DNA of 64,000 nt from Eledone cirrhosa. Taxonomy: Eukaryota. The stretch is from assembly GCA_964016885.1 (NCBI GenBank), contig OZ024741.1, positions 81,468,001 to 81,532,000 on the forward strand, given 5' to 3'. A model generated the notes under the pieces. That model had not been told where the DNA came from. It saw nothing but the letters and a program-made list of their open reading frames with translations, and searched no databases. The position numbers and the translations under genes are program-made. Below, piece by piece: positions 5,101-62,696 of this stretch (positions are counted from its first letter, which is position 1; each line of letters starts with the position of its first letter).

Positions 5101-5755
5101 TTATCGTGAACTCGTGCGCCGATTTTTCGATACTCGATTATTCTACTATATTTAGCTCTAGACTTAGCTATTGACCAGTTAATTTTATTGTTCATTTTTT
5201 GTTGATTCTATTAAATGATGAATAGCTCCTGTTTATTTTAACATGTCTATTGAGCACTCTTATTCGATATGCGATTTTCCACATTCCCGAATATTTTTCG
5301 CGGATATAGAGGTTATCTCCCTTGCTGGATTCCATGTGCGTTTTCAGCTAGGGTTGGCTTTTTTATTCGTCTGGACAAAGCTCGTTGATAAAGTATTTCC
5401 TGTCCGCCGCTCTCTAGAAGTCTTATATATTTTTATGTGGGCTGATAGTGGGCGGTTTAAGGATTTACAGAAACCCAAGAAGCTAGATTTACCATCTTTC
5501 TAGTGGGTCCGGGTAAGCTTTTTACATTCACATGATTTATTGATTTATTGATATTTTATCTGAGTGACCCGAATCTTCCTGATCGTAATTTTTCGGTCGT
5601 ATGGTTGATTTTAGACATAATCTATGTGTGTTGGTATTTTAACGATAGTTATAGCTCTGATTTCTCTGAATTATTGAGCCCTCTGCCACTCATGTCGAAT
5701 TTTGTTTATCGTGAACTCGTGCGCCGATTTTTCGATACTCGATTATTCTACTATA
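5101..5755 (+). mobile_element. Family D non-coding element, 605-bp unit plus 50-bp terminal repeat
   Basis: 5101-5150 repeats at 5706-5755. (TA)n on both sides. Homologous to the reverse complement of 61848-62696. Confidence 0.8.
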
Positions 5756-6939
5756 CATATATATATATATATATATATATTAAGATAAGCAGAACAAGCA
5801 AAATTCAACCAATTTTTTTAAATAAATTAAAAAATATAATATAAATATTTACCTCTTCTAATTGCCCTTACTGATCAGTTTCGCTTTGTAAAACCCCAGA
5901 AATCCGATATATATATATATACTCATGTGATGGCGTGTATGTCTGTAAGTCTATGTACGTACATATTTATGCAGGTACAGAGACGATGTCCTACAAATGG
6001 CCCACCTCTATCACACACACACTCGCGCGCGCGCACACACACACTGTCTCTCTCTCTCTCCTTCTCATCTTCTCGTTATTGAAGTGTGAGAAAATGCAAT
6101 GGGGATCCAGATTCACCTCTCACCATGACATCTACATCCTGACAGCACTCTTATCTCTCTACGTCGTCAAATATCCAGTGACAACCGCCATTTCTCTGTC
6201 TCTCTCTTTTTTTTTTCTTTTTTCTTTTAAATCCTTAATAAGGATGTCTGCACTTTCTTAAAAGTTTTAGCCAACCGTAAATATTCCAGATGAAAGGCAA
6301 AATTAAATGACTTTGGCAGGACTTGATTATCAAGACATAAAGAGCTGGAATAAAACAGAGCAAAATATTTTGATCAATGCAAAGTTGACCCCAGCAGGAT
6401 TTGAACACTAGAGTGTAATGTGCCGGATAAAATGCCGCAAAGCATTTTACCCAAGTACAATGCCATACGTTTTGTGGGAGGGTTGAGGCAATGAAATCAT
6501 CCCGAATGAGTACCAGCAATAAGTGGTGGTTTAATCCTGCGATAGACTGGCGTTCTGTCTAAGGGGGTATTGTACTCTCAGTCGCTTCTCGTCATGAAAC
6601 CAGGATAAGCACTGGCCAAATGAGCCTTCTGGCTTAAGACAGACTTTAGACTTAGTACTTGACTAGTGTTCGGCTCACGATTGTAAGGTTGGGTATTCGA
6701 TTTCCAGCGACGTGTTGTGTCCTAAAGCAAGATACTTTATGTTACGTTGCTTTAGTTCATTCACTTAACAAAATTGAGTTGTAGCTGAAATTCAAAGGGC
6801 CAGTCTTGTCACATACTGAATCTCCCTGAGAACTACGCTAAGGGTACACGTGTCAGCGGAATTCATAGCCACTTCTACATTAATTACACGATCATATCAA
6901 TTGGAACACTCGTGGTCGGAACCGACGGATGACCAACAT

Positions 6940-8042
6940 ACACCTGACTGGTACTTAATCTAATCAATCTTGGAACAATGAAAAACGAAGTTAAATAAGT
7001 TTGGATAGGATTTGAATAAGAAAACATAAAGAGCTGGAGTTAAATACCGCTAACCATTTTGTTCTAGCGTTCTACCGATTCTGCCGAAATAATAGTTTGC
7101 ACCTTCGGCAAAAGGACAACAGTTTGAAGAGATTTAACAATCAATTAAATTGATTACAGGATTTGAATAGTACTTTATTTTATCCACTCCGGAAGGATAA
7201 CAAGATATATTGACCTCAACGGGATTTGTACTCAGAAGGTAATGGGTCGTAACTAAATGCAACGATTCTCAGCAATTTAGGGAAGGAGAAGGTCGATTAT
7301 ATATACTCCAGTACTTAACTGGTACTTTATTTTATTGACCTCAGAAGCACGAAAGGTAAAGTTACTTCAGTAGGATTTGAACTCAGGTTGGCACTTGTCA
7401 TCTAACGTTTCATTTACGATGACCACAACGATAACAATTGCAACAACAGTGGCAACAATGGTTTCTAACTTAGGCACAAAGTCAAGAGTTTGAAGAGAGG
7501 AATAAGTCGATTATATCGGCCCTAGTACTTCACTGCTGCTTTATTTTATCGGCCCCGGAAGGAGTAAATGCAAAGTTGACATCGCTGGAATTTTATACTC
7601 TAGACGAAAAGGACCGTAACTAAATGCTGGCGCTCTAACGATTCTGTCAAAATAATTGTTTCTACTTTTGGCACAAGGCCAGCAATTATCACAGTGTATT
7701 ACTGGTAGTTTATTTTACGACCTCGTAAGGATGAAAGGCAAAGTTAACCTCGGCGGGATTTGAACTCAGACCATAAAGGGCCGTAACTCTTTGCTGCAAA
7801 GCATGGCGTCTGACTCTCTACCGATACTGCCAATAATGGTTTCTTATATAGGCACAAGGCCAACAATTTTGGGGGAGAGGAAAGTCGATTAAATCAACCA
7901 CAGTGGGTGACTGGTACTTTATTTTATCGACCCCGTAAGGATGAAAGGCAAAGTTAACCTCGGCGGGATTTGAACTCAGATCACGAAGGGCCGTAACTCT
8001 ATGCTGCTAAGCATGGCGTCCGACACTACCGATACTGCCAAT
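6940..8042 (-). mobile_element. Head-to-tail array of about 6 main-family SINEs
   Basis: Repeated ctggtactttattttatcgacc...gatttgaactcag units in the same orientation with differing decay. Confidence 0.8.
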
Positions 8043-8285
8043 AATGAAACAAAATTTCTTCTGCCTATCTAGAATCAATTGACTTATTCTTCGATTAGAT
8101 TCTATGTCCCCACCCCGCTCGCTCTCTCTTTCCCTCTCTCCCTCTCTGCCTCTATCTATCTGTCTTTTTCACTATTTCCCCCTTCTCATCCGTCTTTCTC
8201 AGTTCCTGTCTATCTGCTCACCTCTCTATCATTGTCTGTCTCTCGCTGTCACGCATGCTTTCTTACTTACTCTCTCTTTTACTCT

Positions 8286-8580
8286 CACACACACACACAC
8301 ACACACACACACACACACACACACACACACAGACACACACACACACACACACACACACACACACACACACACACACACACACACACACACACACACACAC
8401 GCACGCACACACTCTCACTCACTCACACACACACTGTCTCTCACTCACTCACTCAATCACATACACACCCTCTCTCTCTATCACTCACACTCACTCTCTC
8501 TCTTACTCACACACACTCTCTCTCTCACTCACTCACTCTATCTCTCTCTCACTTACTTACACACACTCTCTCTCTGTCTC
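8286..8580. repeat. (CA)n / (CT)n compound microsatellite
   Basis: Directly visible. Source of the spurious HT-repeat ORFs. Confidence 0.95.
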
Positions 8581-8904
8581 TCCAATTATAAATTAGACGA
8601 GTCAGTTGACCCACCAGCTGTTTCCTTGTTCCTTCCGCTAAATCGATCACCTTCGAGAGTTTTCATTTTCTTTCCTTCTTTTAGATTTACATTTTTTCAT
8701 CAATTGTATTTTATTAATTTTCTACAATTTTTATGAAATTCTTTTCGGTCTTTTAATGTTTTTTTTGTTTGTAATTTTACGTTTTCGTTCTTTTTTTCTT
8801 TTTATTATGCTGGTATTTTTATTTGATTTGCTTCTGTTTTCGACTTTTTCAAGAACATTTAGACCATGTCACTAATTCTGATTGTTTTCACTCGTCTTCA
8901 TGGA

Positions 8905-60888: not shown

Positions 60889-61026
60889 TGTCATTTTTTC
60901 CATTTATGGTTTTCAGTACGCCCGGCCGACTAACTCACTCGATATGCAAATTAGGCTGCTCAGCCGTTAATATGCATAAAGAAAGTATATACTTTCAAAC
61001 GTTCAATCGATTGACAGGAAAGTATA

Positions 61027-61067
61027 CGGTGCTGATGACAGCTAATAAACTAGAAACTAGTTCATCG
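61027..61067 (+). ncRNA. Minimal type I hammerhead, family A
   Basis: CGGUG-CUGAUGA-c-agcu-aaua-aacu-a-GAAA-CUAG-UU-CAUCG. Confidence 0.72.
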
Positions 61068-61506
61068 TTCCTTTGTCAGTGTTGAACAAAAACGCAACGA
61101 TGGTTGCCGAACACTGTATGGCTTAACTCGGGCTGTTTGTTTACAAACAAACCGAACATTATAATAAATGTTCGGTAAACCCATGCGTACTTATATATAT
61201 GTGTGCATGTATGTATGTATATACATACTACTGTACGTCTGTATACATATATGTATGTACGTATGCATACTTATATATATATATGTATATATATATATAT
61301 ACATATAAATATATATATATATATATATATATATATATATATATATATATATATAAATATATATATATATATATATATTTATTTATTTATTATTTATTAT
61401 ATATAACTAATAAGCTCTGTAGCCTACATAGAGCACTCTTTTTTCCTGTACCGTTCCGATGGAATTACTTCATATATATATATATATATATATATTAATA
61501 TATATA

Positions 61507-61788
61507 TTAATAAAAGGAATTCAAACTTTGTCTGATTTACTCGTTTTATTTACTATCCTTTAAAATTATAATAATATTATTATGAAATAGTATGGTAGAA
61601 TATTAAATGTTAAGTGTTAATTGAACAAGTACTTCCATGCTTTCTCAATCTTCAGGTTCATATTCAGTGGTGACAGTCAAGTTTGCAATTTTCAAAAGTT
61701 GAAAATTAACATGAACGAGTAAATCAGACAAAGTTGGAATTCCTTTTATTAATATAATCTTCTATACACAATCATACACACCCGTGTA
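61507..61788. mobile_element. Family H second copy with deleted right arm, degenerate hammerhead at 61622-61660 (minus)
   Basis: Aligns with 44061-44260, then jumps to the equivalent of 44404-44478. Confidence 0.85.
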
Positions 61789-61847
61789 TATATATATATA
61801 TATATATATATATATATATATATATATATATATATATATATATATAT

Positions 61848-62696
61848 ATAGTAGAATAATCGAGAATCGGAATATCAGCCCACGAAATCACGATAAACAA
61901 TATCCGATATATGTGGCAGAGGGCTCAATAATTTGGAAAAATCAAAGCTATAACTATCGTTAAAATACCAACACATAGAGGTCATGCCTAAAATCACCCA
62001 TGCAGCCGAAAAAGAACGACCAGGAAGATTCGGGTCACTCAAATAAAATATCAATAATTTAATAAAATAAATGAATGTAAAAAACTCACCCGGACCCGCT
62101 AGAACGATGTTAAATCTAGCTTCTTGGGTTTCTGCAATTCCTTAATCCAATCACTATCAGCCCACATAAAAGATATATAAGACTTCTAGAGAAGAGAGGA
62201 ACGAGGAAAGGCTTCTTCAACGAGTATTTCGTTCCATAATACAGAGGGGCCCCGAAGCCAAACAACGCACATGGTATTCAGCAAGGGAGGGAACCCTTAT
62301 ATTAGCGAAAGAATTCGGTGATGTGTAAATTATGTAAGAATACAAATTATTACATATCGAATCAGAGTGCTCAACAGACATATTAAAATAAACAAGAGCT
62401 ATTCATCAGTCAATAAGATCAACAAAAAAATCATCAATAAAATTAACTGGTCAATAGCTAGGGTCTAGAGCTAAATATAGTAGAATAATCGAGAATCGGA
62501 ATATCAGCCCACGAAATCACGATAAACAATATCCGATATATGTGGCAGAGGGCTCAATAATTTGGAAAAATCAAAGCTATAACTATCGTTAAAATACCAA
62601 CACATAGAGGTCATGCCTAAAATCACCCATGCAGCCGAAAAAGAACGACCAGGAAGATTCGGGTCACTCAAATAAAATATCAATAATTTAATAAAA
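61848..62696 (-). mobile_element. Family D element, 629-bp unit plus ~220-bp terminal repeat
   Basis: 61848-62067 repeats at 62477-62696. (TA)n flanks. Confidence 0.85.

What the first reader, a model, noticed from the sequence alone, without database searches (positions are those of the whole stretch)
5101..62696. Family D: fixed end at (TA)n, variable overshoot past one unit
Seen: the copies at 5101-5755 and 61848-62696 (opposite strand) end at the same point (gattattctactata then TA run) but extend 50 bp and ~220 bp beyond one ~605-629-bp unit. Inference: priming at a fixed site on a circular or tandem template with variable termination, mirroring the 4348-bp unit plus ~235-bp overshoot of the Penelope-like element. 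I found no complete hammerhead (only ctgatga at about 62403-62409, minus), so processing may use a divergent or different ribozyme.
Basis: partly seen in the sequence, partly recalled or inferred. Interest (0 to 1): 0.7.

Follow-up and report, generated by a model that had tools for sequence, protein, structure and literature searches.

The report
One-armed retrozyme with a hidden hammerhead
These two copies belong to a family of thousands of protein-free jumping repeats that sit in TA runs and carry an unusual, easily missed hammerhead RNA motif predicted to cut itself; the way the copies end suggests that a borrowed retrotransposon enzyme likely pastes them in by copying round a small RNA circle.

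Summary
The two copies are real: 605- and 629-bp units, 80% alike, with 50- and ~221-bp terminal repeats and one fixed end at TA. Genome-wide the end is fixed (2284 of 2416 exact end motifs run into TA or the next unit), but overshoot is not the rule: 53 of 97 sampled insertions are shorter than one unit. 5' ends pile up just behind the predicted cut (18 of 97 versus 1.3 expected), units within one insertion copy one haplotype, and the youngest arrays hold up to 18 identical full units. Best reading: an animal non-LTR retrozyme, likely copied from a circular RNA by a Penelope-type enzyme. Unlike this genome's Penelope elements it is almost always one-armed, and no autonomous partner was found. 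Self-cleavage and circles are untested. The scan found other, two-armed retrozymes in this genome before, not this family. New variant of a known kind.

The parts
5101..5755 (+). Family D copy 1: 1.08 units (50-bp partial unit + 605-bp unit); holds one complete hammerhead, so predicted unable to release a unit-length RNA by itself
5101..5150 (+). 5' partial unit, identical to 5706-5755
5380..5514 (+). Type I hammerhead motif: stem I 5' strand 5380-5384, core UUGAUAA (U3-A8) 5385-5391, long stem II 5392-5469, GAAA 5470-5473, stem III to 5508, C17 5509, stem I 3' strand 5510-5514; predicted cut 5509/5510 (unit 359/360)
5567..5571 (+). Downstream strand complementary to 5510-5514; predicted to out-compete stem I (ribozyme off-switch)
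5517..5525 (+). Unit positions 367-375: hotspot of 5' ends among genomic copies, 7-15 nt behind the predicted cut
5752..5755 (+). TATA at the fixed 3' end, inferred start site of reverse transcription; merges with the TA target
5037..5100 (.). (TA)n tract 5' of copy 1 (target)
5756..5780 (.). (TA)n tract 3' of copy 1 (target)
61847..62696 (-). Family D copy 2: 1.36 units (about 221-bp partial unit 62696-62476 + 629-bp unit 62475-61847); one complete hammerhead
62088..62225 (-). Hammerhead motif of copy 2: core UUGAAGA (U3.G8 wobble) 62220-62214, GAAA 62132-62129, C17 62093, predicted cut 62093/62092
62031..62035 (-). Competing (blocker) strand of copy 2
61787..61846 (.). (TA)n tract at the fixed end of copy 2
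36238..41663 (+). Comparison element, not part of D: broken Penelope-like element with Hydra-clade motifs, 4348-bp unit, 248-bp pseudo-LTR, inverted 5' arm, TA target

Best explanation
Family D is a non-coding retroelement with a fixed 3' end in TA repeats whose 580-630-base unit carries a variant type I hammerhead motif; the motif is predicted to cut tandem transcripts into unit-length RNAs that likely circularise, and a borrowed Penelope-type enzyme likely nicks a TA run and reverse-transcribes round the circle from one fixed site. Steps: (1, shown) unit, fixed end, variable 5' ends, TA target, long target duplications, conserved covarying hammerhead fold and blocker strand. (2, predicted) loci with two hammerheads (about 1.62 units or more; 10 of 97 sampled insertions) are transcribed, the hammerhead folds first and cuts after GUC at unit position 359. 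(3, inferred) the freed 5' end pairs with the downstream blocker strand, so the ligated circle would not recut. (4, inferred) the enzyme primes at the UAUA 246 nt downstream of the cut, copies towards the cut site, often stops at or just before it (linear monomer run-off or the junction of the circle), otherwise goes on for one to about 19 rounds. (5, inferred) the cDNA end joins the upstream TA tract by short TA matches, giving one-armed insertions with a 5' partial unit. Old arrays later evolve locally like satellites (shown for one 65-unit array).
For: Fixed end: 2284 of 2416 end motifs run into TA or the next unit; in loci picked by an internal motif, 33 of 40 closed chains end at 598-605 and 4 of the other 7 end at 597 in a subfamily with a variant tail. 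Hammerhead: 375 of 396 motif copies held with intact upstream DNA have YUGANRA 69-82 nt before GAAA (163 distinct; U-A 98, U.G 64, C.A 1); in 27 representatives at 63% mean column identity U4 G5 A6 A9 G12 A13 A14 A15.1 C15.2 G16.2 U16.1 C17 are invariant, stems I, II (first 3 pairs) and III pair in 95, 89 and 93% of cells with two-sided changes in each, 0 of 500 shuffles reach the covariation score and slid controls fall to 23-49%; RNAalifold recovers stems I and III unprompted; the fold equals the MFE of the isolated motif in 17 of 29 representatives. Cut site marks the DNA: 18 of 97 5' ends at unit 367-375 versus 1.3 expected (Poisson p about 6e-15), on the first, second, third and fourth pass; 8 of 30 loci examined (of 36 hits) start exactly at 360, 0 of 11 at 359 (read by eye). 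One template per insertion: in 68 multi-unit insertions 201 differences in 17,265 compared columns, 169 with a rare allele, no haplotype chimera, while 151 sites differ between nearest insertions yet agree in all units of each; four young arrays of 6-18 full units are identical within and between loci but for three single-unit changes, and five small insertions are each uniform for their own haplotype. Target duplications of 25-52 bp in 8 of 129 flank pairs versus 0.6 in shuffled pairs. Blocker dominates stem I in the folded circle in 8 of 8 units (0.44-0.99 versus 0.04 or less) and changes with stem I (CGGGU/ACCCG to CAGGU/ACCUG) in relatives found by profile, not by motif. Known basis: Penelope RT starts internally at fixed sites on AT-rich nicks (PMC11167929); circle-to-multimer model proposed for PLEs and retrozymes (PMC4209133, PMC7229834); TA-targeting Hydra and Neptune elements with intact frames exist in this genome.
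Against: No RNA evidence for cleavage or circles was obtained. With 30 nt of upstream flank, stem I is a minor fold in the computed ensemble (0.00-0.08 in 5 of 8 units, 0.30-0.69 in 3); the base of stem II is an N.A mismatch, not G10.1-C11.1, and 64 of 163 distinct motifs have a U3.G8 wobble, so activity may be low. Rfam finds no ribozyme (it also missed the window's Penelope hammerhead). The main hotspot (373) is 13 nt from the cut and sits on a TA-like word, so trimming must be assumed; the 360-versus-359 contrast is biased by flanks ending in T (5 versus 0 without them). No excess of changes at the cut nucleotide: about 26 versus 18 at a control C. One young 13-unit array is mixed at one site (5 of 13 units), which a single circle does not explain, and recurrent same-polarity differences exist among the 17 recurrent sites. 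Divergence within an insertion is about equal to that to the nearest other insertion (lower in 27, higher in 23 of 73). D is one-armed (2 insertions, L028 and L226, among about 230 arms) whereas the Hydra family is head-to-head in 21 of 74 loci, no second start site or tail was seen, and no autonomous element shares D sequence in 50 GIY-YIG loci and 4 other elements. In vitro a Penelope enzyme used uncut RNA (PMC11167929).
Confidence: 0.62

Rival explanations
1. Linear multimer model: long read-through transcripts of pre-existing homogeneous arrays are copied by internal initiation; the hammerhead cuts rarely or is a retained protein-binding fold, and the 5' hotspot is the end of occasionally cut RNA or a pause at the blocker hairpin and U-run. 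No circle is needed; arrays are made or kept uniform by local recombination.
For: Internal initiation on uncut RNA is shown for a Penelope enzyme (PMC11167929); long identical arrays exist that could act as masters; the mixed 13-unit array and the higher-order duplications in the 65-unit array show local turnover; hammerhead fold is weak in context; no junction scar.
Against: Dozens of haplotypes are each uniform inside their own multi-unit insertions with little shared heterogeneity; copying from linear sources can only shorten arrays, yet five separate very young loci hold 6-18 full units; core and stems are conserved across about 50% divergence.
Confidence: 0.22
2. Same RNA circle, different helper: a non-LTR (LINE-type) reverse transcriptase rather than a Penelope enzyme primes on the UAUA by pairing with a nicked TA run, which would explain the single arm and single start site.
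For: One-armed insertions with 5' truncation, microhomology joins and long target duplications are ordinary LINE footprints (own knowledge); Penelope families here are often two-armed; no Penelope partner found.
Against: Fixed internal start without a 3' tail, TA targeting, type I hammerhead and partial tandems are Penelope traits (PMC8557442, PMC11167929); two D insertions do have an inverted arm; the LINE-like elements seen in the window are not bounded by TA.
Confidence: 0.12
3. Non-autonomous rolling-circle DNA transposon (Helitron, Helentron or Replitron type): the fixed end is a nick origin and the variable end is leaky termination on a DNA circle.
For: Fixed plus variable ends and head-to-tail arrays also arise in rolling-circle transposition (own knowledge); many 5' joins fall on TA-like words.
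Against: Conserved RNA ribozyme fold with G.U pairs on one strand; target duplications present whereas Rep-type transposons generally make none (bioRxiv 10.1101/2022.12.15.520654, parts 1 and 3 read); no TC...CTRR ends; the base next to the terminal TATA varies between subfamilies; only 5 of 44 copies reaching the unit junction stop there.
Confidence: 0.03

Closest known systems
Metazoan non-LTR retrozymes (Cervera and de la Pena 2020, PMC7229834, parts 2-4 of 6 read; Li, Clavereau and Pollet 2026, bioRxiv 10.64898/2026.07.22.740005, parts 1-3 of 5 read)
   Same: Non-coding tandem units each with a type I hammerhead, low GC, monomers to long arrays, long target duplications, proposed Penelope helper; unit length inside the 51-972 bp range of Li et al.
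   Different: Unit longer than the 150-450 bp of the 2020 paper; stem II about 78 nt and branched, core U3-A8 or U3.G8, stable stem III; a conserved blocker strand, whereas most metazoan retrozyme circles were predicted to leave the ribozyme free; the ends of insertions are mapped here (one fixed start, stop at the cut site); no homology to a Penelope pseudo-LTR found.
Penelope-like elements, Hydra and Neptune clades and non-autonomous MRC1-type copies (Craig et al. 2021, PMC8557442, sections 3, 6, 9, 10, 11, 15 and passages read; Frangieh et al. 2024, PMC11167929, main text read)
   Same: Fixed 3' end, 5' truncation, partial tandems and head-to-tail multimers, (TA)n target, hammerhead 200-250 nt upstream of the end, internal start of reverse transcription.
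   Different: No coding frame, almost no inverted 5' arm, no 30-40 bp tail or second start site seen, no sequence shared with the autonomous families sampled.
U3-A8 hammerhead variants (Perreault et al. 2011, PMC3088659, section 8 and passages read; Cercyon variant in Cervera and de la Pena 2014, PMC4209133, parts 1-2 of 4 read)
   Same: Compensated swap of the 3-8 core pair; extra nucleotide after A9.
   Different: Also U3.G8 wobble in many young copies, an invariant extra A before G12, and a stem II ten times longer than in those descriptions.
Plant LTR retrozymes and hammerhead viroids (as summarised in PMC7229834, discussion)
   Same: Ribozyme predicted to be blocked by a complementary strand in the circle.
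   Different: Type I motif in tandem units, no LTR, animal host.

Membership tests
Metazoan non-LTR retrozyme | Non-coding unit in tandem copies, each with a type I hammerhead | tested here: met
   No frame of 120 aa or more inside copy 1; arrays of 2-65 units; motif in 375 of 396 held copies with intact upstream DNA
Metazoan non-LTR retrozyme | [quoted passage not shown] | tested here: met
   Met for the family (10 of 97 sampled insertions reach 1.62 units, plus arrays); not met for either window copy
Metazoan non-LTR retrozyme | Low GC, no LTR pair, target duplication longer than 4 bp | tested here: met
   Unit GC 36%; 25-52 bp duplications in 8 of 129 flank pairs versus 0.6 shuffled; most flanks are pure TA and uninformative
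Metazoan non-LTR retrozyme | Self-cleavage in vitro | not testable with these tools
   Needs a bench assay
Metazoan non-LTR retrozyme | Expressed as linear and circular unit-length RNA | not testable with these tools
   Only contigs of runs of unknown kind were available
Type I hammerhead ribozyme | Invariant core U4 G5 A6 A9 G12 A13 A14, A15.1-U16.1 pair, NUH triplet | tested here: met
   All invariant in 27 representatives, triplet GUC; the search expressions demanded these letters, but their fixed spacing and the stems were not demanded
Type I hammerhead ribozyme | Watson-Crick pair between positions 3 and 8 | tested here: inconclusive
   U-A in 98, U.G wobble in 64, C.A in 1 of 163 distinct motifs; copy 1 U-A, copy 2 U.G
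Type I hammerhead ribozyme | Three stems supported by covariation | tested here: met
   (33 cells with two-sided changes, 0 of 500 shuffles; slid controls low); outer stem II pairs align poorly (61% paired)
Type I hammerhead ribozyme | G10.1-C11.1 pair directly closing the core | tested here: not met
   One extra nucleotide on each side (mostly A or C opposite an invariant A) precedes the first pair
Type I hammerhead ribozyme | Match to an Rfam hammerhead model | tested here: not met
   (150 of 188 rows shown)
Type I hammerhead ribozyme | Tertiary contact between loops or stems I and II | not tested
   Not searched
Non-autonomous Penelope-like element | Fixed 3' end, frequent 5' truncation, partial tandem, microsatellite target | tested here: met
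   (123 of 129 3' flanks TA-rich)
Non-autonomous Penelope-like element | Inverted 5' arm common; optional 30-40 bp tail | tested here: not met
   2 two-armed insertions among about 230 arms, no tail class seen
Non-autonomous Penelope-like element | Sequence similarity to the 3' end of an autonomous family | tested here: inconclusive
   None in 50 of 150 listed GIY-YIG loci (10,597 candidates) or 4 other elements; sampling is thin
Helitron / Replitron-type rolling-circle DNA transposon | No target duplication; conserved nick-site termini | tested here: not met

The most novel reading that the evidence does not exclude
An old, diverse retrozyme superfamily (at least 6,300 motif copies) runs on a hammerhead architecture that standard descriptors miss (78-nt branched stem II, U3-A8 or U3.G8 core, N.A mismatch at the stem II base) with a built-in, covarying off-switch; its insertions are single-armed rolling-circle reverse transcripts whose 5' ends record the ribozyme cut site in DNA, which is genomic evidence that ribozyme-cut circles are the true template of a Penelope-type or still unidentified TA-targeting enzyme working in a one-primer mode.
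Probability: 0.4. Interest if true: 0.72.

Novelty: new variant of a known kind. Interest (0 to 1): 0.52.

Why it matters
How retrozymes and Penelope-like elements make their tandem insertions is open: the circle model is proposed, while the one in vitro study found ribozyme cleavage dispensable. Family D offers a clean test: a very young subfamily with identical arrays, one start site, a stop at the predicted cut, and intact candidate helper frames in the same genome. The motif also shows that hammerhead counts in animal genomes miss long-stem-II, swapped-core forms, and a natural self-inactivating hammerhead would be a useful part for making stable circular RNA.

Tried and rejected
Rfam scans of the window and six loci: no ribozyme row. 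First reading of CTGATAG...GAAA (unit 292-323) as a degenerate hammerhead core: rejected, CUGA is not conserved in relatives and lies inside stem II. HDV-like, hairpin, twister and non-circularly permuted hammerhead mappings (PMC10085705, parts 1, 3, 4 of 8 read): conserved letters did not fit; compared by eye. Splice-donor reading of GG|GT(A/G)AG at the cut site: dropped because the CAGGU lineages do not keep a donor-like context. Folding z-scores of the wrongly chosen 3' half of the motif were unremarkable. Junction-scar test at C17: no excess. Within- versus between-insertion divergence alone was not decisive. Partner search by sensitive blastn and profile against Hydra, Neptune-type, other Penelope and LINE-like stretches: only low-complexity matches. 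Pfam names none of three Penelope proteins. Sequencing runs: no RNA holder listed; contigs of X1, X4, X5 show only presence and variants. Literature searches listed no paper on cephalopod retrozymes or on a natural type I hammerhead with such a long stem II; an octopus repeat annotation (PMC13282606, parts 1-2 of 3 read) does not discuss such elements. Supplements were not opened; Repbase, Dfam and that paper's deposited library could not be searched and may hold this family as an unknown or Penelope-labelled repeat.

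
Full report
Observation. Copy 1 (5101-5755, +) is a 605-bp unit preceded by an exact 50-bp repeat of its end; copy 2 (about 62696-61847, -) is a 629-bp unit preceded by 221 bp at 99.5%; they are 80% identical and end at the same TATA before a TA run. The window lies in a 3.0-Gb AT-rich animal genome that looks octopus-like by its short interspersed repeats (label recalled, not tested).

Genome-wide ends. The terminal 18-mer occurs 2416 times (reversed control 0): 1636 continue into TA, 648 into the next unit, 132 otherwise. I mapped 97 of the first 100 TA-ended sites on contig C1 (three were dropped by the script as exact duplicates of another end): 53 are shorter than one unit, 5 about one unit, 39 longer, up to 3.4 units. 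So the fixed end is real and the overshoot is the long tail of 5' truncation. Loci chosen by an internal motif, hence blind to the 3' end, gave 33 of 40 closed chains ending at 598-605; four more end at 597 in a variant subfamily and three are interrupted or an inverted arm. 123 of 129 3' flanks are TA-rich and 88 of 129 5' flanks end in TA; 8 of 129 flank pairs share 25-52 bp of imperfect TA sequence against 0.6 in shuffled pairs, which reads as long target duplication.

A preferred stop. 5' ends are spread over the unit but 18 of 97 fall at positions 367-375 against 1.3 expected, on the first to fourth pass (eleven other positions were shifted by hand for TA overrun, none into this bin). Pattern counts then showed 8 of 30 examined loci (36 hits) starting exactly at position 360 and 0 of 11 at 359; the second search cannot see flanks ending in T, and without those the contrast is 5 to 0, so it is suggestive only.

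The ribozyme. Rfam found nothing, and my first candidate core, CTGATAG, failed. A profile search picked up relatives at 50-70% identity by chance in other loci, and motif searches counted 3389, 1461 and 1528 copies in three lineages, controls 0. They share the architecture (unit 572-622 bp where measurable, TA-bounded, fixed 3' end). In them GAAAC...GUC stays fixed while stem III changes on both sides. The missing half lies about 82 nt upstream: a five-base strand that pairs with the bases after GUC, followed by UUGANAA or UUGANGA. This is a type I hammerhead with a U3-A8 (98 of 163 distinct motifs) or U3.G8 (64) core and 69-82 nt between A9 and G12. In 27 representatives all core letters are invariant; stems I, II and III carry two-sided changes, 33 cells in all, above all 500 shuffles and far above slid controls (relatedness inflates the shuffle test); RNAalifold recovers stems I and III. 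The isolated motif folds as a hammerhead at its energy minimum in 17 of 29 representatives (one of the 29 is a spurious match and was left out of the alignment, as was one deletion variant). In the window the motif spans 5380-5514 and 62225-62088. The predicted cut is after position 359, so the RNA 5' end would be position 360, where the exact starts lie and 7-15 nt before the main hotspot. Against strong activity: an N.A mismatch closes stem II, many copies have the wobble core, and with upstream flank stem I is a minor fold in 5 of 8 units.

An off-switch. 11-61 nt after the cut a second strand complementary to the stem I 3' strand is kept: 27 of 28 distinct copies of the second lineage have it although the search did not ask for it, and 97 of 110 in the other loci have a form of it; it changes together with stem I in profile-found relatives, and a 40-base deletion variant removes the loop but keeps the helix. 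In folded circles it out-competes stem I in 8 of 8 units. Most metazoan retrozyme circles were predicted to lack such a block (PMC7229834, discussion).

One template per insertion. In 68 multi-unit insertions the units differ at 201 of 17,265 columns, mostly by rare alleles, with no switch between haplotypes, while 151 sites separate nearest insertions yet agree within each. A very young 615-bp subfamily has five arrays of 6-18 full units in 50 Mb; four are identical within and between loci apart from three single-unit changes, and five short insertions are each uniform for their own haplotype. That is what repeated copying of one unit-length molecule gives. Against: the fifth array is mixed at one site in 5 of 13 units, an old 65-unit array shows block duplications (57 units aligned), within- and between-insertion divergences are similar overall, one array borders an assembly gap, and the cut nucleotide shows no extra changes (about 26 versus 18).

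The helper. The window's Penelope-like element has Hydra-clade motifs and its family has a canonical hammerhead in 8409 matches (the window copy carries U at position 8). Intact Hydra- and Neptune-type frames exist. None of the elements sampled shares sequence with D. The Hydra family is head-to-head in 21 of 74 loci, 12 of 20 long-frame GIY-YIG loci hold an inverted repeat, but D has two two-armed insertions (L028 seen, L226) among about 230 arms. A Penelope helper is therefore inferred from the target, the internal start and the ribozyme type, not shown.

Mechanism, with status. Shown: anatomy, ends, target, conserved fold. Predicted: cleavage at 359/360 and blocking after cleavage. Inferred: circularisation, priming at the terminal UAUA, rolling-circle copying with frequent stop near the cut, joining by TA microhomology. 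Both window copies hold only one hammerhead and would be dead ends; about a tenth of insertions are long enough to be sources.

Comparison and verdict. It works like, and on the features testable here is, a metazoan non-LTR retrozyme; the two defining bench features are untested and the hammerhead departs from the consensus at the base of stem II. It works like a non-autonomous Penelope element but fails the inverted-arm and tail features and has no identified partner. U3-A8 cores are published (PMC3088659, PMC4209133), and the circle model is published as a proposal. Earlier notes of this scan describe other retrozymes in this genome, some with U3-A8 cores, all as two-armed; look-ups by sequence found no note on this family. 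What is new is the combination: very long stem II, covarying blocker, single arm, and a stop at the cut site written into thousands of insertions. New variant of a known kind; interest 0.52.

Noticed in passing
window 36238-41663: All three hammerhead copies of this Hydra-type insertion read CTGAATA where the family has CTGAAGA: a G8 change shared by both arms and the pseudo-LTR, so it was already in the template.
   Followed up: partly
L151:1165-3594; L257, L259, L260: Unbroken Penelope-type frames: 809 aa with Hydra motifs; 938, 1096 and 636 aa (stop to stop) of Neptune type; candidates for the helper.
   Followed up: partly
L166:2640-4860 (-): A further two-armed, TA-bounded Penelope-type element with a C-terminal GIY-YIG and a canonical hammerhead, clade not assigned.
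   Followed up: no
window 4680-5037; 62703-62880 and 47772-48050: Two other TA-bounded repeats (one a head-to-head pair) that often share TA tracts with D copies elsewhere in the genome; no canonical hammerhead in the pieces scanned.
   Followed up: partly
G000:C1:44273600-44282200 (L174): Young 13-unit array with one site mixed in 5 of 13 units and almost no other change; unexplained by a single circle.
   Followed up: partly
G000:C1:81709200-81749160 (L177-L180): About 65-unit array with block duplications of 3-4 units: a retrozyme insertion turning into a satellite.
   Followed up: partly
615-bp subfamily: The haplotype with no divergence has the longest arrays (6-18 full units) while slightly older haplotypes have 0.8-4.5 units; long arrays may collapse with age, so some short copies could be collapsed multimers.
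   Followed up: no
window 27103-32040 (+) and 51882-55035 (-): Broken LINE-type elements (Tx1-like and Dong/R4-like; labels recalled, only RVT_1 confirmed for the second). Similar Tx1-like frames lay 0.6-1.7 kb upstream of D in L156 and L162, probably by chance.
   Followed up: no
window 55602-55672 (+): tRNA-like Rfam match, 38 bits, likely the head of a short interspersed repeat.
   Followed up: no
unit 503-528 (window 5653-5678): A second hairpin (GCTC...GAGC) kept across the diverged lineages about 80-100 nt before the fixed end; a candidate protein-binding signal, not tested.
   Followed up: no
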